Of a stretch of DNA of 64,000 nucleotides, positions 202 through 59,112 are shown in pieces. Source of the stretch: Candidatus Microgenomates bacterium (GTDB lineage: Bacteria; Patescibacteriota; Microgenomatia; UBA1400; UBA12108); the NCBI GenBank assembly GCA_003576945.1, contig QEVC01000001.1, positions 26,129 to 90,128 of the forward strand. Direction: 5' to 3'. The translations under genes were made by a program, and so were the position numbers. Within the stretch, counting starts at the first letter, position 1. Each line of letters starts with the position of its first letter. The notes under the pieces were generated by a model. The model was not told the origin of the DNA. It worked only from the letters and a program-made list of their open reading frames with translations, and ran no database searches.

Positions 202-1053
202 TCACGACGTATGAGTTTGCGTGCTTGGAGGGGCGGGTTCGGCGGGTGGTGTGGGTAATTGCTCCTCGGGTCTCCCAGACTGCTTTGCGTCTGGAGACAT
301 TTCTCGGGAGCTCTCGCTCTCGAAGTGCAGTGGCTTAGGAGTTAATCTGGTCATTAATTTGTCTCCCCAGTCTTGGGCTAGGCGAAACGAATTGTAAAGC
401 GCGGAGAAGGCGAGTGAGGTGATGACGAAGAGTTTTTTACCTGAAGGGAGGAACATAAAAATAAGATAGCTGCCGACTGGTAAGACTACCTGCATTAAGA
501 TCTTATCTTTGCGTGAAATGGGGAGGGGTGAGCGCATGGCGATTAAAACCTCGACGACAAAAATCATGATGGACTGGACTAAGTTGAGGTAGGCGTTGGT
601 ATGACTAAGGTCATATTTGCCTAAAAACATTAGGTTAACTGTGTCTGGGTGAGGCATAAAGTCGTAGAGAAGGTGAAAGTCCTTACCTTCTAAGCCGGTT
701 GCAAAAATGCGGTAAAGCATGAAAATAATCGCGAGTTGAATCAGGATGTTGGTAGTGGTGGCTAAGACAGTTCGGATATTACTACGCATGACCAACCTAA
801 TCGCCTCTTTTTGCTTGATTGGCTCGTGGGCATATAATTTTTTGGCTTCCTCAATTTTCTCGATAATTTTTTGCTTTTCTTCTTCACTCCGCTCCCCTGC
901 AATAGTTAGGGGGAAGGTAAGGATACGGACAATGATCGAAAAGATGATAACGGCAATACCCATATCAGCTATGTCGGGTGAGATGGCACCAAGAAGCGAG
1001 TAGAGGCCAACAAGAATATTAAAAAAAGGAGTATAGATATATGTTTCGAACAT
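202..1053 (-). CDS. YidC/Oxa1-family membrane protein insertase (paralogue 1, long hydrophilic Pro-rich C-tail)
   Basis: 283 aa and multi-TM. The N-terminus, FNILVGLYSLLG...GIAVIIFSIIVRILTFPLT, matches the YidC core helix-1 pattern and parallels the second YidC at 23281-24018. Confidence 0.55.
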   Translation of the reverse strand: MFETYIYTPFFNILVGLYSLLGAISPDIADMGIAVIIFSIIVRILTFPLTIAGERSEEEKQKIIEKIEEAKKLYAHEPIKQKEAIRLVMRSNIRTVLATTTNILIQLAIIFMLYRIFATGLEGKDFHLLYDFMPHPDTVNLMFLGKYDLSHTNAYLNLVQSIMIFVVEVLIAMRSPLPISRKDKILMQVVLPVGSYLIFMFLPSGKKLFVITSLAFSALYNSFRLAQDWGDKLMTRLTPKPLHFESESSREMSPDAKQSGRPEEQLPTPPAEPAPPSTQTHTS

Positions 1054-1057
1054 TATG

Positions 1058-1094
1058 AGTTAATCCGTAAATCAGTAATCCCGTAAATCCGTGA
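1058..1094. repeat. 8-nt periodic direct repeats (GTTAATCC GTAAATCA GTAATCCC GTAAATCC) in the leader of yidC paralogue 1
   Basis: Seen directly in the sequence. The same motif family occurs at 1711-1748, 19764-19800, 21811-21843, 24026-24058 and 58655-58704. Confidence 0.6.
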
Positions 1095-1571: not shown

Positions 1572-2419
1572 ATTTTTATTTTACTTAATACTCTACTACT
1601 CGGGTTGTTGGGATGAAAAAAGGCGGAGTCTTTTGTGATATATTCGCGCGTAATTCTGCCTTTCATATAGAGATATTGCAAGGTATATAGAAGGTTCTCG
1701 AGTAGTTTTTCGTATAGCCGTAAATCCGTATAGCCGTAAATCCGGGTGGATAATTTGGGGATTTGGTAATTTGGTAAATAGGTATTGATCCAAGAATTAG
1801 AAGAAAGGAGCACAGAGTGGGTATTATTGGGATCGTAGAGCGGGACAGCCTGAATTAATTCGTAGGCAGTGTAGAGCGAGCGGAGGTGAGGTGGAAGTGT
1901 GAATGAATCTGGGGTTAGATAGAGGTTGAGACAGAGTTTTCCCATCACATTTTTGGTATTTCGAGAGCGTCGTAGACCAAGTAGCGTAGTGTAGATTGTG
2001 AGGAGGAAGCGTGTGGTCCAGAGTTTTTTTGACTCGGCAATAATCATTAAATCGATGTCATCATGGCCATCGGTATTTTGCATGGCGAGACTACCGGTCA
2101 GATAAATAGCGCGAATTGAACGAATGCGTGTAAGGATGGGGATGAGTGATTTTGTGTAATCAAAGAGAGGCTTGGACAAGCGTGAATATAGTTTGCGTCT
2201 TCTAACAAGCGATGACTTTTGGGGAAGAAAATAATAGTTAGCTTCTTGCGAGATTGACTTGGACTTAATAAGAGAGTTAATTATTTTACCGAGTAATGAT
2301 TTTGAAACCTGATATTTGATTAGACGAGCGTGGAGCTCTGCGAGGGTTAGAGGGTAGTTAAAATAATCACTATAGGTGAGGGTTTTTTTGATTGCGCTTT
2401 TTAGACCCTGATCGACCAT
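1568..2419 (-). CDS. Hypothetical protein with a Pol-beta-like nucleotidyltransferase motif
   Basis: GSLAMQNTDGHDDIDLMII resembles the GS...D.D nucleotidyltransferase signature. The C-terminal region runs through an octamer repeat and may be over-extended. Confidence 0.35.
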   Translation of the reverse strand: MVDQGLKSAIKKTLTYSDYFNYPLTLAELHARLIKYQVSKSLLGKIINSLIKSKSISQEANYYFLPQKSSLVRRRKLYSRLSKPLFDYTKSLIPILTRIRSIRAIYLTGSLAMQNTDGHDDIDLMIIAESKKLWTTRFLLTIYTTLLGLRRSRNTKNVMGKLCLNLYLTPDSFTLPPHLRSLYTAYELIQAVPLYDPNNTHSVLLSSNSWINTYLPNYQIPKLSTRIYGYTDLRLYEKLLENLLYTLQYLYMKGRITREYITKDSAFFHPNNPSSRVLSKIKI

Positions 2420-5739: not shown

Positions 5740-8028
5740 ATGGCAATGGCTAAAAACTTTGACCACAAGAGTGTTGAATCTAGTGTGTATGCACAATGGG
5801 AAAAGTGGGGTGCTTTTGAACCTAACAAGGAAGCGAAGGGCAAGCCCTTTACGATCGTGCTCCCTCCCCCAAACGCGTCAGGAAAAATGCACATGGGAAA
5901 TGTGCTGATGATCGCGATTGAAGATCTGATGATCCGCTATCACAGAATGAAGGGAGATCCAACGCTTTGGATACCTGGAACAGATCATGCAGGATTTGAA
6001 ACTCAAATTACCTACGAACGAGAGCTCAAAAAACAAGGAAAGTCTCGCTTTGACTTTGATCGACAAACCCTATACCAGAATATTTGGGAGTTTGTACAGA
6101 ATAATAAAAACCAAATTGAGGGTCAGATCAAGCAAATGGGGGCGAGCGTGGATTGGAATAGGTATACTTTTACGCTTGATCCACACGTGATTGAAACGGT
6201 TTATACAACATTTGCCAAGATGCACTCGGAGGGGTTGGTTTACCGGGATAATTACATGGTGAACTACTGCCCCAAGTGTGGTACTACCTTTGCAGACTTA
6301 GAAATAATACACGAAGAGAGGGTTGGCAAGCTTTACTACGTCAAGTATTTAATCCAAGGTGAAAGTGATAAATACATCACAGTCGCCACAACAAGACCCG
6401 AGACAATTATGCTCGATACGCATATCGCAGTTAACCCGAAGGACAAGAAGAGGGCGAGCTACATTGGGACAAAAGTGATTAACCCGCTAACAGGCAAAGT
6501 GATGGAAATAATTGGAGATGAATTTGTAGATCCTAAGTTTGGAACTGGTTTTGTTAAACTAACGCCGGCACATGATAAGAATGACTATGAGGTGGGTAAA
6601 AAGCATGGACTCCCCTTCATTGTGGGGATTGGGATGGATGGAAGGATGACTCAAGCTGCGGGCCGCTGGGCGGGAAAGACGGTGTTTACGGCAAGAGACG
6701 ATGTGATTGGAGAACTAAAAGAGATGGGGGTAATTGAGAAGGTGGATGAGAAATATAACCAGAGCGTTTCGGTGTGTTACAAGGGCGGACATGAAATCGA
6801 GCCAATGGTACTCCCCAACTGGTTTGTAAAAGTTGAATCACTCAAGAAACCGGCGCTTGCGGCGGTGACTAGTGGAGCAGTAAAGATCTATCCTAAGTGG
6901 AGAGAGATCACATATACCAAGTGGATGGAAGAAATGCACGACTGGCCAATTAGCAGGCAAGTGGTGTGGGGGATCAGAATACCGGTGTGGTACATGGTCA
7001 GACAACCAGAAAACTCGGAGAGTCAGAATGTCGGAGTGTCAGAAAATCAGAAGATACAAATAACATTTTTGAATAAAGAAAAAAAGGTAGTAAGCGGGAC
7101 GGTGGGCGAGTTGCTTAAGTCGTATACATTTGAGGATATTAGGGATGGGCTGCAAACTCTGATTGCTCCAGCCGGATGTGAAGCAGTAGTAAGTGCAGAG
7201 TCTCCGGGGGAAGGGTACCTACAGGAAACCGATACGTTTGATACCTGGTTCTCCTCGGGCCATTGGCCGCTAGTCACTTTGAAATATCCTGATAGCGATG
7301 ACTTTGCTAAGTTTTATCCGACATCGGTCTTGGAAACTGGGTGGGAAATTATCCGTTTCTGGGTATCGCGCATGATTATGTTTGGGATCTACCTCACGGG
7401 CAAGCCACCCTTTGAGTATGTCTACCTCCATGGACTAGTCCGAGCACTCGACGGGCGGAAAATGAGCAAAAGCTTAGGCAACGTAATTAACCCAGATGAG
7501 TATATGGATCAATATGGGGTGGATGCCTTGCGGATGGGGCTGATCTCAGGAACAGCTAACGGAAAAGATTTTGCGTTTCCAAAAGATAAGATCGTCAGCT
7601 ACCGTAACTTTGCAAACAAATTGTGGAATATGACTCGTTTTTATCACATGATGGTGGAAAAGGAAGAAGTAAAAGTCGAGTGGTATAAACCTGGAATGGA
7701 CGACTTATCAGAGCTAGATTTAGATTTCATCAACAAGTTGAATACAACCATCAAAAAAACCGATGAACTACTCGCAAAATTCCGTTTTGCTGAGGCAGCA
7801 GAGACGATATATCACTTCATGTGGGACGAGGTGGCCGCTGTATACATAGAACAAATCAAAGATCGAGATAACAAAAAAACATCCCTATCCGTATTAAGAC
7901 ACCTACTAATGCAAGGAGTGAAATTACTTCACCCATTCATGCCGTTTGTGACCGAGGCGATCTGGAGTGAGTTTCCTGAGAGGACAGAAGAACAGTTAAT
8001 TAACGCGAGCTGGCCGGAAATTAAATAA
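5740..8028 (+). CDS. valS: Valyl-tRNA synthetase (class I aaRS, compact form)
   Basis: HIGH-type motif PPPNASGKMHMGN, editing-domain TTRPETIM, and KMSKS motif GRKMSKSLGNVINPDE followed by GVDALRMGL. The protein is 762 aa and lacks the long C-terminal coiled coil. Confidence 0.6.
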   Translation: MAMAKNFDHKSVESSVYAQWEKWGAFEPNKEAKGKPFTIVLPPPNASGKMHMGNVLMIAIEDLMIRYHRMKGDPTLWIPGTDHAGFETQITYERELKKQGKSRFDFDRQTLYQNIWEFVQNNKNQIEGQIKQMGASVDWNRYTFTLDPHVIETVYTTFAKMHSEGLVYRDNYMVNYCPKCGTTFADLEIIHEERVGKLYYVKYLIQGESDKYITVATTRPETIMLDTHIAVNPKDKKRASYIGTKVINPLTGKVMEIIGDEFVDPKFGTGFVKLTPAHDKNDYEVGKKHGLPFIVGIGMDGRMTQAAGRWAGKTVFTARDDVIGELKEMGVIEKVDEKYNQSVSVCYKGGHEIEPMVLPNWFVKVESLKKPALAAVTSGAVKIYPKWREITYTKWMEEMHDWPISRQVVWGIRIPVWYMVRQPENSESQNVGVSENQKIQITFLNKEKKVVSGTVGELLKSYTFEDIRDGLQTLIAPAGCEAVVSAESPGEGYLQETDTFDTWFSSGHWPLVTLKYPDSDDFAKFYPTSVLETGWEIIRFWVSRMIMFGIYLTGKPPFEYVYLHGLVRALDGRKMSKSLGNVINPDEYMDQYGVDALRMGLISGTANGKDFAFPKDKIVSYRNFANKLWNMTRFYHMMVEKEEVKVEWYKPGMDDLSELDLDFINKLNTTIKKTDELLAKFRFAEAAETIYHFMWDEVAAVYIEQIKDRDNKKTSLSVLRHLLMQGVKLLHPFMPFVTEAIWSEFPERTEEQLINASWPEIK

Positions 8029-9700: not shown

Positions 9701-10261
9701 ATGAGCAAACGATCGGTAGAAACACGAGTTGAGATGGCAGAGCCGAAAGAACACTCTCCAAGAGAGATGCCAACGGAGCTTTCGTTAGGAGCGTTGGTTG
9801 AGGCGTGGACTAAGTCAGGGAATTTGAGAAAAATCGCTAGTTTTGCTAATAAACACCAATATGACGATCATGGGAGCGTGGTAAGACATTTAGGTGATTT
9901 AGTACAGACTTTGTCGGCAACAAGAATGTCTGTAGATGATGCTACGGTGGGATTGATGAAACAAATGGCTGCGAATCTTGACGATGACATTATGAGAGAG
10001 GTGATGAGCGAACTAAGTGGTAAGCATAAACCACAATCGAGAACAATGGAAATACCTTCACGGTGGGCACAAGGAAACAATACTTTTGTCTGGGGCTTAC
10101 TGCTTGGAAAGCCATACAAAGATAAAGTCGACACAATGAGAGTGATGTTTGGATCTACAGATGGTCAGGCAAGAACTTTTACGTTTTGGCGAAAAGATAA
10201 CGTTTCAAAGGGCGTAATGACTTTTGAGATGCCGGAACTAGAGTTGGATTTTAAGAGTTAG
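9701..10261 (+). CDS. Hypothetical protein
   Basis: ORF (track 9659..10261). The first in-frame ATG downstream of the stop-terminated ATG at 9690 is at 9701 (MSKRSVETRV...). No recognisable domain. Confidence 0.35.
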   Translation: MSKRSVETRVEMAEPKEHSPREMPTELSLGALVEAWTKSGNLRKIASFANKHQYDDHGSVVRHLGDLVQTLSATRMSVDDATVGLMKQMAANLDDDIMREVMSELSGKHKPQSRTMEIPSRWAQGNNTFVWGLLLGKPYKDKVDTMRVMFGSTDGQARTFTFWRKDNVSKGVMTFEMPELELDFKS

Positions 10262-19763: not shown

Positions 19764-19800
19764 TTTAAATCCTAAATCCCAAATAACAAATCCCAATTAA
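19764..19800. repeat. Octamer-periodic AAATCC repeats immediately upstream of the 917-aa gene start
   Basis: ttttaaatcctaaatcccaaataacaaatccc. Confidence 0.5.
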
Positions 19801-21701: not shown

Positions 21702-22896
21702 GAGAGTAGTTTACTACTTTAAGGTAGATTAAGAGGATTAGTAGTCCCTGGGGTGAAGTGAGGAGATAGTGGTCGAGAAGGAAGAGGGGAAGAACTGGAA
21801 TTATGTATATCAGTAAAGCCGTAAAGCCGTAAAGCCGTGAAACAAAGAATACTACAACCAAGACACCAACAGCTCCAAACCAGGAGAGAAAGAGGGTAAA
21901 ACTATTATGGTCGGGCTGGAGGAGGCGGTGGGAAGGAGAGAGCATAGGATAGGTCGAAATGCTGGCACTAGCACCGGTTCCAAAAACTGGGTAGTTTTTG
22001 ATTACGTCGAGAGAGAGGGTCTGGAGAGAGAGGCGCTCCCCAATGGATAAATCGGCGCGCGGCGGAAGAAAAAAGGAAAAATAGCTGATTGCCAGGGTAA
22101 ATAGTGCTGCAAAATATAGAAGTCTCAGGCGAAGGTATTTGAGAAAATAGAGCGGGATGATAAGACCAAAAAGAGCGAGAGCAGAAGAGTGGCTCTGGGT
22201 GAGGAAGATGCCAAGAGTAGTTGCGATAGTAAATAGTACATAGTACATAGTTGATGGTTTGAGTCGCATAATGATAAGGAGACTGATCACTAGCCAACCA
22301 GCGAGGATGTTGGGGTGACTAAAGGTACCATAGGCTCTCAATATGACTTGGTCCATAAACGTCGCAAGGGCGACCCCTGGCTGCCCCACAGCAACCATTC
22401 GTTCCCCTAGGTAGTAGAGCGGTCCTTGCAGTGCGTGACCTCGTGCTAATTGGGCAATGGAGAGGATAAGTTGAAATGTGGTGGCAATGAGAAGAGGGAG
22501 CTTGAGCGAGATCAAGTGCTTGATAGAGAGTGATTGAACAAATAGGAAATAGAGTAATAAATGAAGAGACCAGGTGAGAGTGGTCATAGGATTGGTGGAA
22601 AAGATGAGGTTGGTGAGCAAAATTAGAGTAATTCCTTCGACCCTAAAATGGGACAATACAGTCTTAGGAAGGATGGCTAAATAAAATAGAATTAGGATGT
22701 CCAGCAAGTAAAGAGTGGGGGCGAGGTAGTCGACCCTAATCCCGTAAACAAGAGACGAGCTGGGCCAAAAGTGAAACCCAAGCTGAGTGGAGGAGAGGAG
22801 AAAGATGAGAAACAGTAGGATGCGTCTAGCTCTTGGGAGCCAAGATAAGACGACGGTCGATCCCAGTGCCCTCAGAATAGGTGGTAAGACTATCAT
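21679..22896 (-). CDS. O-antigen ligase/polymerase-like (Wzy/WaaL family) membrane protein
   Basis: 405 aa and polytopic. The annotated start overlaps the jag 3' end, so the true start may be internal or non-ATG. Confidence 0.45.
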   Translation of the reverse strand: MIVLPPILRALGSTVVLSWLPRARRILLFLIFLLSSTQLGFHFWPSSSLVYGIRVDYLAPTLYLLDILILFYLAILPKTVLSHFRVEGITLILLTNLIFSTNPMTTLTWSLHLLLYFLFVQSLSIKHLISLKLPLLIATTFQLILSIAQLARGHALQGPLYYLGERMVAVGQPGVALATFMDQVILRAYGTFSHPNILAGWLVISLLIIMRLKPSTMYYVLFTIATTLGIFLTQSHSSALALFGLIIPLYFLKYLRLRLLYFAALFTLAISYFSFFLPPRADLSIGERLSLQTLSLDVIKNYPVFGTGASASISTYPMLSPSHRLLQPDHNSFTLFLSWFGAVGVLVVVFFVSRLYGFTALLIYIIPVLPLFLLDHYLLTSPQGLLILLIYLKVVNYSHVKSRRQ

Positions 22897-23280: not shown

Positions 23281-24018
23281 TTATGATTTATTAAACATTT
23301 TACTAATTTTGGCCCAGTAAAGAGCGAGGCCGCCAGGACCAGAGACAATTAATTGTTGAACGAGGGAAAAGGCGGTCGTGATAACCCAGTAGAGGGCTAA
23401 CCCAGAGGGGAATTGGAGTGAGAAAATTATAGTCATAATGGGCATCATAAAAACCATTTGCTGCTGCATAGTCTGGGCCATCTCGGCAACATCTTCTTTT
23501 TGTTCTTTGGTGCCATCTCTTTTGCTTGGCTCGTTCTCGATTGCAGGAAGGAGGGCAACCGAAGTAATTAACTGAAGAACACCGGCAAGTACGGGCAGGA
23601 CATAGGTTGAGTCTTTGACCTTGAGATCCCACCAGAGGAAAAGTGAGTTTATCTCGCCCATTCCATTGCCACCAAGTGTATTCATAAATACTTGATAGAG
23701 GGCGATTAGTACAACAAACTGGGCAATGAAAGGGAGACAGCCGGCAGCGGGATTAATTTTATTTTTTTGATAAAGCTCAAGTGTTTTTTGTTGGAGAAGT
23801 TTGCTGTCGCTACCATGCTTTCGCTTTAGCGCGTCTAGCTCTGGCTTGAGAGCTGCCATTTTTTTGGCTGATTTCATTTGCGGAAGAGTAAAGGGGATTA
23901 AAATTGAGCGAACAAGTAGGGTTAAGACAATGATGGCAAAACCAAGATTGTCGCCCATGACTGAATACAACCACGTAAGGGTATTTAAGATGGGTTGATA
24001 AATCAGTGTTTGATACAT
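23281..24018 (-). CDS. yidC: YidC/Oxa1 membrane protein insertase (paralogue 2, in the canonical rnpA-yidD-yidC-jag context)
   Basis: GFAIIVLTLLVRSILIPFTLPQMKS...NPAAGCLPFIAQFVVLIALYQV are conserved YidC helix motifs. Confidence 0.75.
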   Translation of the reverse strand: MYQTLIYQPILNTLTWLYSVMGDNLGFAIIVLTLLVRSILIPFTLPQMKSAKKMAALKPELDALKRKHGSDSKLLQQKTLELYQKNKINPAAGCLPFIAQFVVLIALYQVFMNTLGGNGMGEINSLFLWWDLKVKDSTYVLPVLAGVLQLITSVALLPAIENEPSKRDGTKEQKEDVAEMAQTMQQQMVFMMPIMTIIFSLQFPSGLALYWVITTAFSLVQQLIVSGPGGLALYWAKISKMFNKS

Positions 24019-24025
24019 ACTTTGT

Positions 24026-24058
24026 GTAAATCCGTATAGCCGTTAATCAGTAAATCGG
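24026..24058. repeat. 8-nt periodic repeats (GTAAATCC GTATAGCC GTTAATCA GTAAATCG) filling the yidD-yidC intergenic leader
   Basis: Same motif family as the leader of yidC paralogue 1 (1058-1094). Confidence 0.6.
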
Positions 24059-24274: not shown

Positions 24275-24285
24275 GTATTTAGTAT

Positions 24286-24633
24286 TTAGTATTTAGGGTT
24301 AGTAATATCGGAAAGTGCAGAGCTGAGTTCGGAAATGATTTGTTGTTTGGTGGCGGTGGATTTTTTGAGTGGAAGTGGCTTAAATACCACTACTACATCC
24401 ACTTTTTGATCTTTAATTTGAGACCAGAGAGAATCATAAGCCAGACGCTTAAGATAATTGCGGGTGGTTGCGAGCTTGTTCACTTTTTTGGGGACTACTA
24501 CCGCGAGTCGGCTGGCTCGCGAGGTACGTGGTACATAGTACATGGTGCATAGTGGGGTCACGATTTTTTTGCTTCTTGCGCGAAAGCGCAAAAACTCGGT
24601 ACGGAGGGGAAACTTATCTTGTCTGCGAATCAT
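24286..24633 (-). CDS. rnpA: RNase P protein component
   Basis: 115 aa, basic, RNR-like motif region ([10 protein letters not shown]), located between rpmH and yidD. Confidence 0.8.
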
Positions 24634-26266: not shown

Positions 26267-26508
26267 GTTATCCACATTCTTTGTGGATAAGTATGAGGAA
26301 AAGTGCGGGAAAAAATGAGGAAAACTTGAGTAAAAATGAGGATAAGTATGTTATCAACAATTAAATGGAGTTTATCCCCAAGCTTTTCCGGGTTGTTTTC
26401 CACCGCTTCCGCCAGACTTCTATCCACATATCCACAGACCCTAACAACACTATAACTATGTATTAAGCATTTAGTATTTGGTAGTATGTATAAGAAAAGA
26501 GAGGTGTT
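26267..26508. promoter_or_regulatory. Probable oriC: DnaA-box cluster plus three AAAATGAGGAWAA 13-mer-like repeats (candidate unwinding element)
   Basis: TTATCCACA at 26268-26276, TGTGGATAA at 26282-26290, CTATCCACA at about 26420-26428, ATATCCACA at 26429-26437, TTATCCCCA at 26372-26380. Repeats aatgagga(a/t)aa at about 26294, 26314 and 26335, in an AT-rich stretch. Confidence 0.6.
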
Positions 26509-30501: not shown

Positions 30502-31533
30502 CTAGGAGTTTGCCTGAATTTCAAATGGTTGGATAATTTGGTTTTGGACTATGAGTTGTTGGGCGGGAAAGGTGTGTCCATCCGCTTCAACCTCAATCCG
30601 GTACGTGCCGGGGGAGAGGGGCGTGCTGGTCGCAAATTGACCGAGAGCATTGGTTTTCATGGCTCGGGCGGGTACGCCGGTTCCATCTAGTACTTGAACA
30701 ATCGCGCCCTCGATAAGCTTGCCATCTTTACTAGTGGTGATCCCAACTATTAGGTTGGGACTACGGGGTGGGACGGGGAGGTTGATGGATTTTAGTTTGG
30801 TATTTGCGGCTGACTGTGGGGCGACCGCAACTGGTTTGGGGGATGCAGAAAAGATGAGGTTGTTGGGAACTGTAGCCTCTTGGGGTTTTTCGACTCTTGA
30901 TTTTGAGTCTACCACGGTAGTCGGTTGAACCTTAGGAACGACGATTGGCTTGGGAGGACTGACTGGAGGTGGAACTGTTTTTTCGGCGGCCTTTAATTTG
31001 CGGACAGTGATCGCCGGCTTGTCAAAAACGATGTCGGTTTGAGGTTTAGGGTCGGTAGTTGAGGTTATGGGCGCTGGGGCATTTGAAAAAAGAGTATTAA
31101 GCGATTTTACTTGAGAGTTTTCTGCATCACTGAGATCGGAGTCGGTGGCGAGAGAGACTTTTTGAGTAGGTGCCTTGATCGTTTTGGTGATAGTGTTAGT
31201 TGCGGCGATGGGATGGGCAGTAAAAGTAAAAATACTCGGAACCTTGTTGGTTTTTTTCCAGGTAAAGCGCGTGGGTTTGTAGATCGCATTTACAAAGTTA
31301 ATGATCCATTGGTCAAGGGGCCTGTCTTCGATGGGGAAAAATGCGAGGGCGATACCAAAGAAAACTGAAAGGAGAATCAAGGGAGCTTTAAAAATAAAAA
31401 GGAGATTACTACTATAGAAAAGGACGGCGAGGAGTAGGCCGGCGGCTAGTTCGAGAAACTGTTTGAGAGTCATGTCGCCCACGAGGCGGAACTGGTACTG
31501 GGTGACGTTTTGAGGGACAGGGTGCTGGTTCAT
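30502..31533 (-). CDS. Two-TM N-terminal (VirB3/PrgI-like?) membrane protein with a Pro-rich linker and a C-terminal beta-sandwich-like domain
   Basis: Start taken at ATG 31531-33 (MNQHPVPQNVTQYQFRLVGDMTLKQFLELAAGLLLAV...); the track used an upstream TTG. Two hydrophobic helices precede a PPVSPPKP linker. Confidence 0.4.
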   Translation of the reverse strand: MNQHPVPQNVTQYQFRLVGDMTLKQFLELAAGLLLAVLFYSSNLLFIFKAPLILLSVFFGIALAFFPIEDRPLDQWIINFVNAIYKPTRFTWKKTNKVPSIFTFTAHPIAATNTITKTIKAPTQKVSLATDSDLSDAENSQVKSLNTLFSNAPAPITSTTDPKPQTDIVFDKPAITVRKLKAAEKTVPPPVSPPKPIVVPKVQPTTVVDSKSRVEKPQEATVPNNLIFSASPKPVAVAPQSAANTKLKSINLPVPPRSPNLIVGITTSKDGKLIEGAIVQVLDGTGVPARAMKTNALGQFATSTPLSPGTYRIEVEADGHTFPAQQLIVQNQIIQPFEIQANS

Positions 31534-31580
31534 GAATATAGTATAAAGTACCAAGTAAAAAGTACCTAGTGTATGGGATT

Positions 31581-42433: not shown

Positions 42434-45312
<2,879 letters not shown>

Positions 45313-45316
<4 letters not shown>

Positions 45317-45600
45317 GATTGGAAGCCAAAGTTGAATTGAGTAACTGGAGCGCCGGTTAGGTTTTCGATGAGGAGGAGAATGAGCCAGGAGATAATCGCG
45401 AGGGCGAGGCCGCCGACAGCGAGACCAATAGTTTGTTTACCACCTTGTAATCCCTTGGGATCACCACCGCTCGTTAGGATTTTGAAGCCACCGACTAAGA
45501 TCATAATAAAAGCAATCATGCCAATTAAAGGGATTATGGCTGATAAAACATTGCCAAAGTAGTCTGGTAGTTGATCGAGGCGTGCGGCGTCTGAGTCCAT
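45313..45600 (-). CDS. Small two-TM VirB2/TrbC-like (pilin-like) protein, array member 1
   Basis: 95 aa: hydrophobic helix, FKILTSGGDPKG loop, second helix LAVGGLALAIISWLILLLIENLTG. The 4-nt overlap (ATGA) with the upstream gene suggests translational coupling. Confidence 0.5.
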
Positions 45601-45614
45601 GTTTGTAATTATAG

Positions 45615-45646
45615 TACAAAAACCCCGCTTACGCGGGGTTTATTGC
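45615..45646 (-). terminator. Rho-independent terminator inside the pilin-like array
   Basis: CCCCGC-TTAC-GCGGGG hairpin. On the minus strand it is followed by TTTTTG. Confidence 0.5.
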
Positions 45647-45666
45647 ATTGTTTGTAACAAAAAGTC

Positions 45667-46020
45667 TTAGTAAGCAGTTGGAGGAGTGATGTTGTCGTTG
45701 AGGATCGAGATACCAAAGAAGTATTGGATGATCAACATGACGGCCCAGGCGGAGGCGACGACGGCGAGACCGACGAGTGCAGCGGTGATACGATCGCGCG
45801 CTTCTTGGGTTTTACCTTTATCTCCACCACTAGTGATCCATTGAATACCACCCCAGATGAGGTACATAAAGACGAGGAGCGCAGAGACGAGGAGAGCGCC
45901 TTGGACGGCACCTTTGATCAACGTTCCAATATTGGTGATTGCGACGTTATCTGGCTTGCCGATTGAGAGATCTGGAGCAGCTGGTGCAGCCATAACTTTT
46001 TCAACGATTGAGAATGACAT
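45667..46020 (-). CDS. Small two-TM pilin-like protein, array member 2
   Basis: ...YLIWGGIQWITSGGDKGKTQEARDRITAALVGLAVVASAWAVMLIIQYFFGI. Confidence 0.5.
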   Translation of the reverse strand: MSFSIVEKVMAAPAAPDLSIGKPDNVAITNIGTLIKGAVQGALLVSALLVFMYLIWGGIQWITSGGDKGKTQEARDRITAALVGLAVVASAWAVMLIIQYFFGISILNDNITPPTAY

Positions 46021-46040
46021 ATTTATCTCCTTATGTATTA

Positions 46041-46069
46041 GTACTTAGTACATAGTACATGGTACATGG
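46041..46069. repeat. GTACATAG-type 8-nt periodic repeat immediately upstream of array member 2
   Basis: gtacttagtacatagtacatggtacatgg. Related copies at 22235-22250, 46811-46833 and 53188-53216. Confidence 0.5.
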
Positions 46070-46109
46070 TTATAATTCTAGTATTTCTGATTATAGCAAT
46101 AATATTAAG

Positions 46110-46454
46110 TTATTTGGTAATCCCAATACCAAAGAAGTAATCGACGAGCAGATAGACTGCCCAAGCTGAGGCGACGATGGCGAGACCAACAATTGCCTGA
46201 GTGATTTTGTTCCTGGCCTCCTCGAGCTTGCCTTTGTCGCCACCGGCAGTGATCCAGTTGATCCCGCCGTAGACGAGATACATAAACGTGGCTAGACCTG
46301 CAACCAAGATCACTGCTGAGAAACTACGTGAGACAAAGGTTCCTAGATCTTCATTAATTGCTACCCTAGACTTAACCTGATCGTCGACGTTGATCGCAAA
46401 ACTACCACCTTGGGCGGATGCAGTTTTGATTAGTTTTAAAGTTGTAAAGTCCAT
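46110..46454 (-). CDS. Small two-TM pilin-like protein, array member 3
   Basis: ...YLVYGGINWITAGGDKGKLEEARNKITQAIVGLAIVASAWAVYLLVDYFFGI. Confidence 0.5.
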   Translation of the reverse strand: MDFTTLKLIKTASAQGGSFAINVDDQVKSRVAINEDLGTFVSRSFSAVILVAGLATFMYLVYGGINWITAGGDKGKLEEARNKITQAIVGLAIVASAWAVYLLVDYFFGIGITK

Positions 46455-46467
46455 AAAGTTTTTGAAG

Positions 46468-46863
46468 CTACCCTGCGGTAGGCCAGATAATATTTAATAA
46501 ATCAAGTCCGATGGCAGACTCGATAAACTTAACTACGACGTAGCTGGCTGCTAGGACAGCTAGACCAATTAATCCCTGGGTGATTTTGGCTCTACTCTCG
46601 TCAAGTTTACCCTTGTCGCCACCAGCAAGGATCCAGTTGAGTCCACCCCAAAGAAAGTAGAGAAGGAAGGCTAGTCCACCAACAATTATAATGGTTTGCC
46701 AGAGAGTGGCCATGGTAATTGCGAATTGTTGGGGCGCACTGTCGGGTGATTCTCCACCTGGAATTGCAGTGTTGGTGATCGCGGCGCGCGCGAGAGGGGC
46801 ACGAGAAGATAGTACATAGTACGTGGTACATAGCTGGAGGAAAATGATCTGTTTAAGTTTCAT
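46468..46863 (-). CDS. Small two-TM pilin-like protein, array member 4 (with signal peptide)
   Basis: MKLKQIIFLQLCTTYYVLSS... then YFLWGGLNWILAGGDKGKLDESRAKITQGLIGLAVLAASYVVV. Confidence 0.5.
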   Translation of the reverse strand: MKLKQIIFLQLCTTYYVLSSRAPLARAAITNTAIPGGESPDSAPQQFAITMATLWQTIIIVGGLAFLLYFLWGGLNWILAGGDKGKLDESRAKITQGLIGLAVLAASYVVVKFIESAIGLDLLNIIWPTAG

Positions 46864-46865
46864 AT

Positions 46866-47228
46866 TTAATTAAAGGTTAGTCCTTGAATAAGCACGCCGG
46901 GCTCGAGGATGTTAAGACCGAGGGCGGCACTCACGATCCAGGTGATGGAGTAGGAGAGAACGATAATAATTAAACCAATGGCGCCGCCAGTCATCATGCC
47001 TTTGGCCTTGTCAATTTTGCCTTTGTCACCACCGGCAGTAATCCAGTTAAGACCTCCCAAAAGAAAGTAGAGAACAAATGCGATTCCCGCAATAACAGTT
47101 AAAACTACAAGAGTGTTACTGATTAGTTTTTCGACAGCACTAGTACTACCATCGATGCCACCACCAGGTTGATAGCCGCCGGGAGTGGTGATGGTTTGAA
47201 AATCTAAGGCTTTGACTTTGGTAATCAT
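46866..47228 (-). CDS. Small two-TM pilin-like protein, array member 5
   Basis: ...YFLLGGLNWITAGGDKGKIDKAKGMMTGGAIGLIIIVLSY. Confidence 0.5.
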   Translation of the reverse strand: MITKVKALDFQTITTPGGYQPGGGIDGSTSAVEKLISNTLVVLTVIAGIAFVLYFLLGGLNWITAGGDKGKIDKAKGMMTGGAIGLIIIVLSYSITWIVSAALGLNILEPGVLIQGLTFN

Positions 47229-47234
47229 AGGTTA

Positions 47235-47570
47235 TTAAAGACTCCCGGGGCCAGTAATACTAGGTGTTAGGATGGCACCAGCGTTGTTGAATAATAGAAA
47301 AGAGACGACACCAGTGACTGCGGCAGCGCCCACCATAATAATTAGACCAAGGAGAGACATATTGATTGAGTACATGGCCGCTTGAATTTTTTTCTCGTCA
47401 CCACCCGCGGTAATGTAGGTAAAACCAGCGATCATGAGATTGAAGAAAGCATAAAGTCCGGCGGCGGCAAAGATGACGGTAATAACATTACTCACAAAAC
47501 TGGGAAGACCGGTGTCGACGTTGCCGTAGCCGGTGATGGGACTATCGATGCTACCAAAGACGCCTGCCAT
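47235..47570 (-). CDS. Small two-TM pilin-like protein, array member 6 (divergent)
   Basis: ...FNLMIAGFTYITAGGDEKKIQAAMYSINMSLLGLIIMVGAAAV. Confidence 0.45.
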   Translation of the reverse strand: MAGVFGSIDSPITGYGNVDTGLPSFVSNVITVIFAAAGLYAFFNLMIAGFTYITAGGDEKKIQAAMYSINMSLLGLIIMVGAAAVTGVVSFLLFNNAGAILTPSITGPGSL

Positions 47571-47574
47571 AATT

Positions 47575-47877
47575 TTATAAAATCTCTAGTCCGGTGACGA
47601 TTTGGATAATTTGAATTATCCAATACGACCCGAAGACAACTAATAAACCCATTATAGCAAAAGTAATAGTTTTTTTACCCTCCTCCATCTTGTGAGCATC
47701 GCTTGCACCGCTAATTACATTAAAGCCGCCAAGAATAAACATAAAAAAAAGTACTAGTCCGGCGGCAACATAAACATTAGGAAGAATGGCGTTAATTAAG
47801 TCGCTCGCACTGCTGTAGGTGGAATCAGCACCACTACCTTGGAAAATTAGCTTTTCACCCAGATTAAAGCCAGCCAT
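47575..47877 (-). CDS. Small two-TM pilin-like protein, array member 7 (divergent), first gene of the array
   Basis: ...FMFILGGFNVISGASDAHKMEEGKKTITFAIMGLLVVFGSYWIIQIIQ. Confidence 0.45.
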   Translation of the reverse strand: MAGFNLGEKLIFQGSGADSTYSSASDLINAILPNVYVAAGLVLFFMFILGGFNVISGASDAHKMEEGKKTITFAIMGLLVVFGSYWIIQIIQIVTGLEIL

Positions 47878-48675: not shown

Positions 48676-48987
48676 ATGAAGAAGTCGGTTTTAGTTCTTT
48701 GGATGAGTTATGTCTGGGGGACGACGCTCGCAGGTTTGGCAATTCATCCATATCAGTCGATCAGGAGAATTGTATTAACCAAGCGAATATTATTACCAGT
48801 TACCTTGTCACCAGTACTGGGGTTAGTTGTTTTATTTGTGGTTGGGAGAGTGGGGAGCTACGTGTTTACACTTGGAGCGTGGGGAAGAGAGATGATGGCT
48901 TTGGTTTTGGGGAGCACGCTCATTGGGTTGTTGATGTGGCAAGGGTTACTACTCCTATTGGTGTGGCGTTTTTGGCGTGTGCGTTAG
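48676..48987 (+). CDS. Small polytopic membrane protein
   Basis: Start moved to MKKSVLVLW. Three hydrophobic helices. Confidence 0.3.
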   Translation: MKKSVLVLWMSYVWGTTLAGLAIHPYQSIRRIVLTKRILLPVTLSPVLGLVVLFVVGRVGSYVFTLGAWGREMMALVLGSTLIGLLMWQGLLLLLVWRFWRVR

Positions 48988-49346
48988 AGGTGATCGACGA
49001 TGGCGGTTTCGCCAAAGTATCCCAATTTCAGTAGTAGCTTGTCTCGTGTGAGAAAATATTGACATTTTCCCTGGGTTGCGGAGTGAAGTTGAATGTTGTC
49101 TTCTAGATCATTGGTTGGACCAACAAGAGCACGTTGGAGGATGATATTAGACAAATTTACGACACCTATGTTTTTTAGAAGTATGTCGATTTCCATGGAA
49201 GGGACGTTGGTTTTTGTTGCGTAACATAAGATGTGGCAAGAGAGAGGGGAGATGTATAGCTTGTGGTCTGTAAGTTCTGTTATTTTGCCCGTATCGCGCC
49301 TAAATAGGTCGATCAGGATGTTGGTGTCAAGATATATGCTTGCCAT
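48984..49346 (-). CDS. PIN-domain toxin (VapC-like)
   Basis: MASIYLDTNILIDLF...LTRDKLLL match conserved PIN acidic-residue positions. Confidence 0.65.
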   Translation of the reverse strand: MASIYLDTNILIDLFRRDTGKITELTDHKLYISPLSCHILCYATKTNVPSMEIDILLKNIGVVNLSNIILQRALVGPTNDLEDNIQLHSATQGKCQYFLTRDKLLLKLGYFGETAIVDHL

Positions 49347-49593
49347 ATTTTTTTTGGATATAGTCGTCGTAGTTCTTCTTTCTTTGTGCGTCAGAAATTT
49401 TGTTAGTTTTGAGATTTTTGGTGAGTTCTAGATATTTTTTACCATCAAAAGGCCGAGCAGGCTTATCTTCTGGAGGAGAGATAACGCCAAGGACTTGGGA
49501 GCGATGAATCAACTGGACAGAGTGGCCTGCCATGAGTGCATCAACCAGGACGGTAGTATTAGTTCTAAGCTGGGTAGTGGTTATGAAGTTCAT
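49327..49593 (-). CDS. Phd/YefM-type antitoxin
   Basis: MNFITTTQLRTNTTVLVDALMAGHSVQLIHRSQVLGVISP fits the Phd/YefM N-terminal pattern. Overlaps the PIN gene by 20 nt. Confidence 0.5.
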   Translation of the reverse strand: MNFITTTQLRTNTTVLVDALMAGHSVQLIHRSQVLGVISPPEDKPARPFDGKKYLELTKNLKTNKISDAQRKKNYDDYIQKKYGKHIS

Positions 49594-49672
49594 ATACACT
49601 TAAATATACATTTAAATGTATATTTGTCAAGTTGGGCGAATGGTTTTGGTGTAAGTAGGCGACTAATAGGGT

Positions 49673-52856: not shown

Positions 52857-53249
52857 TTACCCAACAATGTCAATTTTGAAGACAACCTGGAGGATCTGGG
52901 CGATCCAGAAGGCGAGAAAGATTACGGCAAAACCAATGAGGGCGCTAGTAATAGTTTTTTTACCTTTTTCCTGGGCTTCTTTATCAGCCGCACCAGCGAG
53001 CATAGTAAAGCCGCCAGAGACGAGCATGCCAAAGAGAATAATCCCAGCGAGGGTTAGGAGCGTGGGGAGAATAGAGCTAATAATACTCCCTAGATTTCTG
53101 GTGTCGACAGATCCACCCCCAAGACCAAGGGCATTTTCGTAGGCACCGTAGTCAGCAAAGTCGGCTGCTCGTGCTTGAGGAACGAGAGTACATAGTACAT
53201 AGTACATAGTACATAGTTGAAAAGAGATATTTTTTAATTTTTTATTCAT
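52857..53249 (-). CDS. Small two-TM pilin-like protein (eighth paralogue, with signal peptide)
   Basis: MNKKLKNISFQLCTMYYVLCTLVPQARA... then MLVSGGFTMLAGAADKEAQEKGKKTITSALIGFAVIFLAFWIAQILQ. Confidence 0.5.
   Translation of the reverse strand: MNKKLKNISFQLCTMYYVLCTLVPQARAADFADYGAYENALGLGGGSVDTRNLGSIISSILPTLLTLAGIILFGMLVSGGFTMLAGAADKEAQEKGKKTITSALIGFAVIFLAFWIAQILQVVFKIDIVG
53188..53216. repeat. (GTACATAG)x3.5 tandem repeat encoding the signal-peptide core LCTMYYVLC
   Basis: Seen directly. Confidence 0.55.
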
Positions 53250-53251
53250 GA

Positions 53252-58654: not shown

Positions 58655-58701
58655 TCGTAAATCCGTAGAGCAGTATATCCGTTTATCTGTGTATCTCTGT
58701 G

Positions 58702-59112
58702 TGGAGACGGAGGGCAGTGAGCCCTCGTCCGGAGCGAGCTTTTAACATCATCTACATACTTGTTTAGTGTTTAAGAGTTTTACCTCTCTAAATATAGGAA
58801 ACTAACAACCAACTATTTAGCGAGGGTAGTCGTTTGTTTGGGTCTGAGCGACTAGTTCAGACTTACGGCTCATGTTTGTTTCCGCCTGTTATTTTCCCAT
58901 GAGCGAGTAGATAACGAGACGCAGAATAATTAAGCAGTGTATGCGTAATTAGCTGAACCAAAGATGGCATTTTCCATTGCTAGAAAAGCATTTTTGGCTG
59001 TCTGTACAAAAGATTTGACAGATATTTTTTGACTCTGTTTTACGACTTCTCTAGTCAAAGTCGGTATGCAGATGTTAAAGAGCGATTCGCCTCGTCAAAG
59101 CAAGACGTCCCC
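58702..59112 (-). ncRNA. ssrA: Candidate tmRNA (ssrA), convergent with smpB
   Basis: The minus strand starts GGGGACGTCTTGCTTTGACGAGGCGAAUCG (compare E. coli GGGGCUGAUUCUGGAUUCGACGGGAUU). It ends GGAC-GAGGG-CTCACTG-CCCTC-CGTCTCC-A, a T-arm plus a 7-nt acceptor 3' strand that pairs with the 5' GGGGACG, then the discriminator. About 411 nt. An open frame at nt 40-183 ends ...FGSANYAYTA-TAA and could be the tag. Confidence 0.5.

What the first reader, a model, noticed from the sequence alone, without database searches (positions are those of the whole stretch)
1058..1094. Family of 8-nt-periodic direct repeats (GTAAATCC / GTATAGCC / GTAAAGCC) in leaders, notably upstream of both yidC paralogues
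Both YidC genes have 4-5 tandem octamers immediately upstream of their start codons and no obvious Shine-Dalgarno. The leader RNAs read GGATTTAC GGGATTAC TGATTTAC GGATTAAC tcata-AUG and GATTTACT GATTAACG GCTATACG GATTTACA caaagt-AUG. The same repeat family occurs upstream of the 917-aa gene (19764-19800) and after smpB (58655-58704). It also occurs inside coding sequence at 1711-1748 and 21811-21843, where GTAAAGCCGTA encodes RLYGFTA. The 8-nt period and recurrence in leaders suggest a protein-binding array, such as a regulator or translational control element, or a miniature repeat that seeds gene starts.
Basis: seen in the sequence. Interest (0 to 1): 0.55.

Follow-up and report, generated by a model that had tools for sequence, protein, structure and literature searches.

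The report
Dispersed 7/8-nt tandem arrays in CPR genome
The octamer repeats in front of both yidC genes are real, but they are two members of a genome-wide class of about 31-nt tandem arrays with 7- or 8-nt units that fill gene junctions and tolerant protein segments in this candidate-phyla-radiation (CPR) bacterium and its relatives, much like the heptamer repeats known from cyanobacteria and Beggiatoaceae.

Summary
Four-unit octamer arrays lie directly upstream of both yidC genes (1059-1092 and 24026-24057) and at the other cited sites.

In the window plus 34 related loci (588 kb), TRF finds 133 period-7/8 arrays against 5-9 in Markov-3 simulations. There are none in 50 kb of E. coli, and few arrays have periods 9-12. 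Modal length is 30-32 nt for both periods.

- **Location:** 39% lie in the ~10% of DNA that is intergenic, often within 20 nt of a start codon. The rest sit in variable loops, termini, signal peptides and transmembrane helices.
- **Orthologous leaders:** they carry arrays with different units or none. Ancestral yidC1 was leaderless, with TATAAT 6-7 nt before the ATG.
- **Evolution:** arrays arise by local duplication and evolve concertedly.
- **What they are not:** they show no copy-number variation between strains and no RNA structure.
- **No Shine-Dalgarno (SD):** this is normal here, since only 23% of genes have one.

Best reading: these are slippage-born, homogenised repeats like the cyanobacterial STRR heptamers and the Beggiatoaceae TAACTGA repeats. 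At yidC they form an unstructured, SD-less spacer. They are not a yidC-specific regulator site. A binding protein with a 7-8-nt register is not excluded.

The parts
1059..1092 (-). Four octamers (sense GGATTTAC GGGATTAC TGATTTAC GGATTAAC), ending 5 nt before the yidC1 ATG
   Evidence: a homologous array is present in L070 and absent in L072-L076
1106..1112 (-). TTATAAT -10-like box overlapping the stop codon of the upstream gene. In array-less orthologues the same box lies 6-7 nt before the yidC1 ATG
   Evidence: promoter function is inferred
202..1053 (-). yidC1 (283 aa, 60KD_IMP)
1711..1748 (-). (GGATTTAC GGCTATAC) x2 inside the nucleotidyltransferase ORF; encodes RIYGYTDLR in a variable loop
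1751..1785 (-). CCAAATTA-type octamer array in the same loop
19764..19800 (-). GGGATTT-type array of 7/8-nt period, directly upstream of the DUF4012 gene ATG (19755)
21805..21838 (-). GGCTTTAC x3 (perfect) plus TGATATAC in a Wzy_C loop. The orthologous site has the same length but other units in relatives
22225..22255 (-). CTATGTA heptamer array in Wzy_C (TMYYVLFTI)
24026..24057 (-). Four octamers (sense CGATTTAC TGATTAAC GGCTATAC GGATTTAC) filling the yidD-yidC2 spacer
23281..24018 (-). yidC2 (245 aa, 60KD_IMP)
24275..24296 (-). CTAAATA x3 (perfect), spanning the rnpA stop and ending 1 nt before the yidD ATG
24523..24553 (-). CTATGTA-type heptamers inside rnpA (PLCTMYYVP), in a variable segment with no length change relative to orthologues
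31540..31570 (-). GTA-phased 7-nt array at the junction of two minus-strand genes
45259..45291 (-). CTTTCTA x4.7 (perfect, 33 nt), encoding the signal-peptide core VLLSTFYFLLSI of the 960-aa protein
46037..46071 (-). CTATGTA-type x4 lying between a TATAAT-like box (5' flank) and the AAGGAG SD of a T4SS pilin gene; read as its 5' UTR by inference, transcript ends not mapped
46809..46833 (-). CTATGTA-type array encoding the signal-peptide core LCTTYYVLS of the 131-aa protein
53184..53220 (-). CTATGTA x4.4 (perfect), encoding the signal-peptide core QLCTMYYVLCT of a T4SS pilin
58655..58704 (-). About six degenerate octamers filling the spacer between the smpB stop and the tmRNA 3' end

Best explanation
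The yidC octamers belong to a lineage-wide class of short, AT-rich tandem arrays with 7- or 8-nt units, about 4 copies and about 31 nt in length. This class is typical of this Microgenomates-group CPR bacterium and several other Patescibacteria.

**Origin (shown by comparison).** Arrays arise by local tandem duplication of a resident 7-9-nt word.

**Maintenance (shown as a pattern; mechanism inferred).** They are kept homogeneous by concerted evolution. The inferred mechanism is slippage or out-of-register repair. The 7-8-nt preference possibly reflects the polymerase footprint, as proposed in the literature for heptamer SSRs.

**Survival (shown).** Arrays persist where about 30 extra nucleotides are tolerated.
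- Intercistronic spacers, the gap between a -10 box and the ATG, and 3' flanks.
- Protein termini, loops, signal-peptide cores and transmembrane cores. Because 7 and 8 are coprime to 3, an array of three or more copies encodes the same peptide in every reading frame.

**Effect at yidC (inferred).**
- At yidC1 the array separated the ATG from an ancestral leaderless promoter.
- At yidC2 it replaced a tight yidD-yidC junction.
- Both genes therefore now have an unstructured, AU-rich, SD-free spacer of 40-50 nt. This probably serves only as a ribosome loading or standby region in a genome that rarely uses SD.

It is not a yidC-specific regulatory operator.
For: **Excess and period specificity**
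- TRF finds 133 arrays against 5-9 in Markov-3 simulations over 588 kb.
- The period histogram peaks at 7 (93 rows) and 8 (44 rows), with few rows at periods 9-12.
- There are 0 arrays in 50 kb of E. coli and 0 in nine other CPR loci.

**Common length**
- Modal length is 30-32 nt for both periods.

**Local origin**
- L012 has two extra units relative to L062, L067 and L068 in the same spacer.
- Window, L070 and L075 have about 41 nt, including the array, inserted between TTATAAT and the ATG. L072, L073, L074 and L076 have TATAAT 6-7 nt before the ATG.

**Concerted evolution at constant length**
- The same Wzy_C loop reads GGCTTTAC x3 in the window, AGCTTTAC/AGCTTTGC/GGCCGTAC in L067, GGCTATAC x3 in L011 and GACTTTAC in L015.
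- One transmembrane helix is encoded by ATTGGTC, TTCCTAT, TTCTATC, TTCTCTC and other arrays in 11 species.

**Selection filter**
- A sense-strand stop triplet occurs in 29 of 81 coding-array units, against 25 of 34 upstream-array units (p=4e-4).

**Against a regulatory or structural role**
- Orthologous leaders carry different units or no array.
- Leader RNAs fold no better than shuffled sequences. The minimum free energy is -4.2 kcal/mol for yidC2 and 0 for yidD.
- There is no Rfam hit other than tmRNA.
- SD is rare genome-wide.

**Precedent**
- Heptamer SSR excess and the polymerase-footprint idea: PMC4692102.
- STRR heptamers: PMC2670836.
- TAACTGA repeats upstream of start codons: PMC4679880.
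Against: - **Shared units.** Unlinked arrays in one genome share units. In the window CTATGTA occurs at 5 loci and GGNTWTAC at 5-6 loci. The core TAC is kept once per unit in 11 of 13 arrays. Yet these words are not enriched outside arrays. Simple local slippage of random words does not predict this.
- **Copying.** A 33-nt ATTTGAGA element with the same irregular 8-8-7-8 structure sits at 11 or more non-orthologous sites in at least 6 species. This looks like copying of a whole array.
- **Slow divergence.** Leader arrays diverge by 6 of 32 positions (19%), while third codon positions of the adjacent yidC diverge by 38-45%.
- **Preference for the yidC junction.** It carries arrays 4 times more often than average.
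- **No slippage seen.** No copy-number change was found in 7-10 independent assemblies, so ongoing slippage is not directly observed.
- **Length-neutral homogenisation.** Inside coding sequence, homogenisation without length change needs a process that I cannot specify.
Confidence: 0.6

Rival explanations
1. The arrays are functional binding sites for an oligomerising nucleic-acid-binding protein with a 7-8-nt register. One version acts on mRNA: ribosomal protein S1, a cold-shock-domain protein or CsrA-like protein, as proposed for the TAACTGA repeats, giving SD-independent translational control. The other acts on DNA: a ribbon-helix-helix protein binding tandem 7-bp (omega) or 8-bp (MetJ, ParG) subsites.
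For: - The position is immediately 5' of start codons.
- The yidC junction is enriched 4-fold.
- Arrays have about 4 units and a constant length of about 31 nt whatever the period.
- There are genome-specific shared cores: TAC once per unit in the window, and invariant G2, A7 and C8 in GGNTWTAC units.
- Leader arrays diverge about half as fast as third codon positions.
- The leaders are unstructured, as single-strand binders need.
- Precedent: PMC4679880. The omega, MetJ and ParG periods are recalled from my own knowledge.
Against: - Units differ completely between orthologous leaders, and several orthologues have no array.
- 61% of arrays are inside coding sequence, up to 6 in one Wzy_C gene.
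- One array lies in a 3' flank between convergent genes.
- Single copies of the motifs are not enriched.
- None of the 30 window proteins scanned, including 20 of the smaller ones, matched an RHH, Csp or CsrA family. Most of the genome is unseen.
Confidence: 0.17
2. The arrays are very small mobile insertions. Whole arrays of about 31-33 nt would be copied to new sites by an unknown mechanism, like the small dispersed repeats of cyanobacteria or the in-frame Rickettsia palindromic elements. The yidC leader copies would then be insertions of such an element.
For: - The ATTTGAGA-ATTTGAGA-ATTTATG-ATTTGAGA-TT element has identical boundaries and the same irregular third unit at 11 or more sites in at least 6 species. 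It occurs both in-frame (FENLRIYDLR) and before start codons.
- Units are shared between unlinked arrays although the words are not enriched elsewhere.
- Perfect heptamer arrays cluster at 33 nt.
- Array length is constant.
Against: - The window's octamer arrays share unit types but not unit order, so they are not copies of one 32-nt master.
- Local unit gain is directly seen in L012.
- No terminal repeats, target duplications or associated enzyme were found.
- The only transposase in the window is an IS200-like Y1 gene with its own hairpin ends.
Confidence: 0.15
3. The arrays are phase-variable contingency loci. Slippage of 7/8-nt units, which are not multiples of 3, would switch surface-protein genes on and off.
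For: - Perfect arrays lie in the 5' coding region of two pilin-family genes and a 960-aa secreted protein, and in polysaccharide genes.
- Heptamer phase variation is known in Haemophilus hmw (PMC8262952).
Against: - None of 10 arrays changes copy number in 7-10 independent near-identical assemblies. The only difference is one SNP.
- There are only 3-5 copies per array.
- The same class occurs in rnpA and in housekeeping junctions.
Confidence: 0.03
4. The arrays are a chance low-complexity or codon-usage artefact.
For: The units are AT-rich (70% against 54% background).
Against: The excess over Markov-3 expectation is about 20-fold. Periods 9-12 are rare, and there are none in the E. coli control.
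Confidence: 0.01

Closest known systems
TAACTGA heptamer direct repeats of marine Beggiatoaceae, some cyanobacteria and Bacteroidetes (MacGregor 2015, PMC4679880)
   Same: - 2-6 tandem copies of a 7-nt unit, mostly a few nucleotides upstream of start codons.
- They often overlap the stop codon of the upstream gene.
- SD is rare in the genome (about 25%) and in the repeat-bearing spacers.
- No RNA structure is predicted.
- The occasional copies inside ORFs sit at protein ends.
- Function is unproven; S1, Csp and CsrA were proposed as binders.
   Different: - There, one unit dominates and related heptamers are rarely repeated. Here there are dozens of units, both 7 and 8 nt, and they differ between orthologous sites.
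- Here 61% of arrays are inside coding sequence.
- Local origin and concerted evolution are visible here.
STRR (short tandemly repeated repetitive) heptamers of heterocystous cyanobacteria, and the general excess of heptamer SSRs (PMC2670836; PMC4692102 citing Mrazek 2007)
   Same: - Dispersed tandem 7-nt units in several families per genome.
- They lie between co-transcribed genes and in promoter regions.
- Function is unknown.
- The polymerase-footprint slippage idea was offered to explain the 7-nt preference.
   Different: - The host phylum is different.
- STRR and Xanthomonas units are often G-rich and can form hairpins or G-quadruplexes. These arrays are AT-rich and unstructured.
- An 8-nt class is equally prominent here.
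- The copy number is narrow, about 4.
Ribbon-helix-helix operator arrays (omega heptads, MetJ 8-bp metboxes, ParG 8-bp boxes); recalled from my own knowledge
   Same: - Tandem direct subsites with a 7- or 8-bp period, 2-10 copies, next to gene starts.
- A conserved core plus variable AT-rich positions.
   Different: - Those arrays are conserved in sequence and confined to a few promoters of one regulon or plasmid.
- They are not found inside coding sequence.
- No such protein has been identified here.
In-frame miniature insertions (Rickettsia palindromic elements; Borg tandem repeats, PMC9879509)
   Same: Non-coding-type repeats that are tolerated inside genes and add peptide segments in loops and termini.
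   Different: - Rickettsia elements are about 100-nt palindromes.
- Borg coding repeats have longer units that are multiples of 3.
- Here the units are coprime to 3.

Membership tests
Long-unit SSR / STRR-like tandem heptamer class | Head-to-tail copies of a 7-nt unit, far above chance | tested here: met
   An 8-nt class is also present.
Long-unit SSR / STRR-like tandem heptamer class | Dispersed at many unlinked loci, with several unit families per genome | tested here: met
   About 15 arrays in 64 kb; CTATGTA at 5 loci and GGNTWTAC at 5-6 loci.
Long-unit SSR / STRR-like tandem heptamer class | Cyanobacterial host and the canonical STRR units | tested here: not met
   The host is a Microgenomates-group CPR bacterium and the units differ. 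One unit in relatives, TCATTGG, is a cyclic form of a unit I recall as STRR2. This is probably chance.
TAACTGA-type start-proximal direct repeats | 2-6 copies ending a few nucleotides upstream of start codons | tested here: met
   Met for the two yidC arrays that are the finding: 4 units each, ending 5 and 7 nt before the yidC1 and yidC2 ATGs; yidD also has one ending 1 nt before its ATG. For the class as a whole the feature is only partly kept: median copy number is 4.0-4.3, but just 30 of 133 arrays end within 20 nt of a start and 81 of 133 are inside ORFs.
TAACTGA-type start-proximal direct repeats | One dominant unit (TAACTGA) shared across genomes | tested here: not met
   There are dozens of units. 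No TAACTGA array was reported by TRF.
TAACTGA-type start-proximal direct repeats | Repeat-bearing spacers lack SD in an SD-poor genome | tested here: met
   The yidC1, yidC2 and yidD spacers lack SD. Only 16 of 71 genes have an SD-like word. The pilin at 46020 has both an array and AAGGAG.
Phase-variable contingency SSR | Copy-number polymorphism between closely related strains | tested here: not met
   Ten arrays are identical in length in 7-10 independent assemblies.
RHH-type operator array (omega / MetJ / ParG) | Tandem 7-8-bp subsites with a conserved core | tested here: inconclusive
   The period and the TAC core fit within this genome. The units are not conserved at orthologous sites.
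RHH-type operator array (omega / MetJ / ParG) | A cognate binding protein and promoter-restricted location | tested here: inconclusive
   Only half of the feature could be tested. Promoter-restricted location was tested and is not met: 61% of arrays lie in coding sequence. The cognate protein is untested for want of data: none of the 30 window proteins scanned against Pfam matched an RHH, Csp or CsrA family, but the rest of the genome was not seen.
Structured cis-regulatory leader RNA | Conserved secondary structure or a match to a known RNA family | tested here: not met
   Rfam returns only tmRNA. Fold z-scores range from -0.57 to +1.14.

The most novel reading that the evidence does not exclude
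The arrays could be a CPR-specific functional system rather than drift. In this reading, about four phased units of 7-8 nt form loading or operator sites for an oligomeric single-strand binder (S1- or Csp-like) or an RHH-like binder, which replaces SD-directed initiation at operon-internal genes such as yidC. Because the units are coprime to 3, the same arrays would also act as frame-independent coding cassettes from which signal peptides and transmembrane segments are built and continually re-homogenised.
Probability: 0.15. Interest if true: 0.8.

Novelty: new member of a known kind. Interest (0 to 1): 0.5.

Why it matters
Heptamer repeat excess in bacteria has been noted since 1990 and 2007, and neither its cause nor its function is known. 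This CPR lineage offers an unusually clean case.

- Arrays are dense (2-6 per 10 kb) and have two sharp periods and a fixed length of about 31 nt.
- Orthologous sites across many species show birth, unit turnover and length-neutral homogenisation.
- Arrays are translated, and they make up signal-peptide and transmembrane cores.
- The case shows how a leaderless gene becomes a leadered one.

These features make slippage-versus-binding models testable with existing metagenomes. There is also a practical consequence for annotation. Start-codon calls and gene lengths around these arrays differ between pipelines: the pilin is called at 116 or 130 aa, and Wzy_C at 302, 342 or 405 aa.

Tried and rejected
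- **Phase variation.** I compared 10 arrays across L001-L010 and L045-L061. There was no length change.
- **Structured RNA or riboswitch.** The Rfam gathering scan and folding of five leaders gave nothing.
- **Hidden SD or -10 box in the last unit.** Neither is present. SD absence is simply normal in this genome.
- **Motif as a frequent genomic word seeding arrays.** The unit words are at expectation outside arrays.
- **A single enriched triplet across all species.** ATT, TAC and CTA are about 3-fold enriched, but this mostly tracks AT-richness. The TAC core is specific to this genome.
- **Hydrophobic coding as a general rule.** Mean hydropathy of array peptides equals that of the host proteins. 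Only about a third of array peptides are strongly hydrophobic.
- **Orientation tied to replication rather than transcription.** This is inconclusive. T>A on the same strand holds for 49 of 56 arrays in plus-strand genes and 7 of 9 in minus-strand genes in close relatives, but the latter are mostly one orthologous site.
- **Single-linkage clustering of units.** It chained AT-rich units together and was uninformative.
- **GC-rich palindromic element of relatives.** It is not present in the window.
- **Literature.** I found no report of such arrays in CPR or Patescibacteria. The STRR unit sequences could not be verified from the held library.

Full report
**1. Context**

The window comes from a Microgenomates-group CPR (Patescibacteria) bacterium.
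- Identical YidC2 is found in NCBI MAGs GCA_025993845.1 and GCA_021404865.1 and in many metagenomes.
- Relatives are titled Woesebacteria or Microgenomates.
- Around the finding lie rpmH-rnpA-yidD-yidC2-jag-Wzy_C on the minus strand, opposite dnaA-dnaN.
- yidC1 (202-1053) follows a nucleotidyltransferase gene and a cytidylyltransferase gene.
- A tmRNA lies on the minus strand at 58699-59112.

**2. The observation**

- Sense-strand units before yidC1 are GGATTTAC GGGATTAC TGATTTAC GGATTAAC, followed by tcata-ATG.
- Before yidC2 they are CGATTTAC TGATTAAC GGCTATAC GGATTTAC, followed by acaaagt-ATG. This array fills the whole gap from the yidD stop codon.
- The array at 58655-58704 fills the gap between the smpB stop and the tmRNA 3' end, so it is not a leader.

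- One heptamer, sense CTATGTA, occurs at 22226, 24531 (inside rnpA), 46039, 46809 and 53187.
- CTAAATA x3 sits at the rnpA/yidD junction.
- CTTTCTA x4.7 lies at the 5' end of a 960-aa gene.
- A GTA-phased array lies at 31541.

Chance is excluded.
- A lag-identity scan gives 7 period-7 arrays against 0.18 expected, and 3 period-8 arrays against 0.35 expected, under a Markov-3 model. Periods 9-13 give none.
- GTA phased four times at 8 nt or 7 nt gives 2 and 6 hits, against 0.01 and 0 in shuffles.

**3. It is a lineage-wide class**

I fetched 34 loci around YidC2 relatives and ran TRF on them together with the window, 588 kb in all.
- Arrays of at least 2.8 copies peak at period 7 (93 rows) and period 8 (44 rows). 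Period 9 has 17 rows, period 6 has 14, and periods 10-12 have 2-3 each.
- After merging there are 133 period-7/8 arrays, against 5-9 in five Markov-3 simulations.
- Density is 1-6 per 10 kb in Microgenomates relatives, two Collierbacteria loci, and some loci titled Saccharibacteria or Doudnabacteria. It is zero in nine other CPR loci.
- The same region of E. coli K-12 (50 kb) has none.
- Length is 30.2 +/- 7 nt for heptamers and 31.0 +/- 5 nt for octamers, with modes at 30-32 nt. Perfect heptamer arrays cluster at 33 nt.
- Units are AT-rich, 70% against 54% background.

**4. Where they sit**

- 52 of 133 arrays lie in the ~10% of DNA that is intergenic, and 30 end within 20 nt of a start codon.
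- The other 81 are inside ORFs and are translated.
  - They map to variable loops, termini, signal peptides and transmembrane helices.
  - They keep the reading frame.
  - Their units are depleted in sense-strand stop triplets: 29 of 81, against 25 of 34 for upstream arrays (p=4e-4), and against 55 of 81 on their own antisense strand.
- Since 7 and 8 are coprime to 3, three or more copies encode the same cyclic peptide in all frames. This follows from the arithmetic.
- That is why CTATGTA arrays always read LCTMYYV, in rnpA, in Wzy_C and in two signal peptides.
- Three signal-peptide cores in the window are array-encoded.

**5. Orthologous leaders**

*yidC2 spacer*

| Locus | Unit upstream of yidC2 |
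|---|---|
| L014, L025 | TTGATTA |
| L019 | ACTGGAAA |
| L020 | GAGAATTT |
| L023, L024 | CATCAAC / CATTAAC |
| L029 | TGAAAAT |
| L016, L017, L018, L026 | no spacer |

- L064, a closer relative, has the homologous four-unit array with 6 differences in 32 positions.
- L012 has two units more than L062, L067 and L068 at the same place. This is a direct case of local tandem duplication.

*yidC1*
- L072, L073, L074 and L076 (64-81% identity) have TATAAT 6-7 nt before the ATG. This is the leaderless layout seen at 31 of 71 window genes.
- The window, L075 and L070 keep TTATAAT but have about 41 nt, mostly the array, inserted before the ATG.
- L071 and L077 carry other arrays.

The arrays are therefore derived insertions and not conserved operators. 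Even so, the yidC junction is hit more often than average: 10 of 35 loci against 7.3% of genes (p=1.5e-4, with species not fully independent).

**6. Evolutionary behaviour**

At one Wzy_C loop of constant length (135 nt), the units differ by species.

| Locus | Units at the Wzy_C loop |
|---|---|
| window | GGCTTTAC x3 |
| L067 | AGCTTTAC AGCTTTGC GGCCGTAC |
| L064 | GGAAATAC GGCTTTAC GGTTTTAC GGCCTTAC |
| L011 | GGCTATAC x3 |

- One transmembrane helix of the same protein is encoded by a 7/8-nt array in 11 of 14 species. The units are related but differ by species.
- Among them is a perfect TCATTGG x4.7 shared by L015 and L024, whose flanks have diverged.
- This is concerted evolution without length change. 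The molecular route is inferred, not shown.
- Between near-identical strains nothing changes. Ten arrays were compared in 7-10 independent assemblies, and the only difference was one SNP. This argues against phase variation.

**7. What does not fit simple slippage**

- Unlinked arrays share units, and in this genome they share a TAC core. The unit words are not enriched outside arrays.
- A 33-nt ATTTGAGA element with the same 8-8-7-8 irregularity occurs at 11 or more sites in at least 6 species. Inside genes it always reads FENLRIYDLR, with the in-frame TGA mutated. It also occurs in front of start codons.
- Leader arrays diverge by 19%, against 38-45% at third codon positions of yidC.

These points keep alive two alternatives: a binding-protein model and a copy-paste model.

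**8. Function at yidC**

- The leaders are unstructured. Minimum free energies are -12.7, -4.2 and 0 kcal/mol, and fold z-scores range from -0.57 to +1.14.
- They lack SD, as 77% of genes here do.
- They do not carry a -10 box at leaderless distance.

I infer that they act as AU-rich spacers allowing SD-independent initiation inside operons. The same role has been suggested for STRR ('translation coupling', PMC2670836) and for the TAACTGA repeats (S1, Csp or CsrA binding, PMC4679880). None of this is tested.

**9. Comparison and novelty**

- The closest known cases are the TAACTGA repeats of Beggiatoaceae (PMC4679880), the cyanobacterial STRR, and the general heptamer SSR excess with its polymerase-footprint explanation (PMC4692102).
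- I found no report of such arrays for CPR.
- I file this as a new member of that known kind, with four notable features:
  - both 7-nt and 8-nt periods;
  - a fixed length of about 31 nt;
  - heavy occupancy of coding sequence;
  - visible concerted evolution.

Noticed in passing
window 1-64000: Most genes look leaderless or SD-free. 31 of 71 have TAnnnT within 15 nt upstream of the start, often TATAAT or TATACT 6-9 nt before the ATG. Only 16 of 71 have a 4-nt SD-like word.
   Followed up: partly
window 1-64000 (composition): GC skew of the + strand is positive from 1 to about 60 kb whatever the gene strand. It does not switch at the rpmH/dnaA divergence (24.8 kb). The sign changes near 60 kb, so either the origin is not at dnaA or the skew is unusual.
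   Followed up: no
window 26421-26436: TATCCACA x2 (DnaA-box-like) lies between dnaA and dnaN.
   Followed up: no
L015 ~9890-9990, L022 ~6450-6550; Wzy_C and rnpA of L012/L013/L017/L018/L021/L024: A second insertion class occurs in relatives: GC-rich palindromic elements. The intergenic copies are roughly 60-90 nt, found in the yidD-yidC spacer. Translated in-frame copies occur in Wzy_C loops (GSDPLRKSWPxAKMFSR...RSDP, about 20-30 aa), and a much shorter insert (SVAAGAVG, about 8 aa) sits in an RnpA loop. They are reminiscent of Rickettsia palindromic elements. None is present in the window.
   Followed up: partly
window 62630-63160: IS200-like Y1 transposase gene (62704-63135, Pfam Y1_Tnp E=3e-30), flanked by similar CGACCGTWAGGT hairpin-like ends.
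   Followed up: partly
window 45313-47877 and 52857-53668: A cluster of small T4SS-pilin-family paralogues. Gene callers disagree on the starts (116 against 130 aa) because the CTATGTA array supplies an ATG in all three frames.
   Followed up: partly
window 30961-31044: An 84-nt in-frame indel between otherwise identical strains. L003 lacks it. It lies in a Pro-rich linker of the PrgI-like protein and is not a tandem array.
   Followed up: partly
window 49592-49625: A 12-nt repeat, ATATACATTTAA x2.8, upstream of a 90-aa ORF paired with a PIN-domain gene (48984-49346). This is probably a toxin-antitoxin operator.
   Followed up: no
window, all arrays: All ~15 arrays lie in or next to minus-strand genes. 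11 of 13 carry TAC once per unit on the sense strand (GTA on the + strand). None is associated with plus-strand genes. This is unexplained.
   Followed up: partly
L062 versus window (yidC2 region): L062 has 97% identical YidC2 (18% third-position divergence). Yet its yidD-yidC spacer is of the L067/L012 type and its Wzy_C loop array is of the L024 type. This suggests recombination between lineages around yidC.
   Followed up: no
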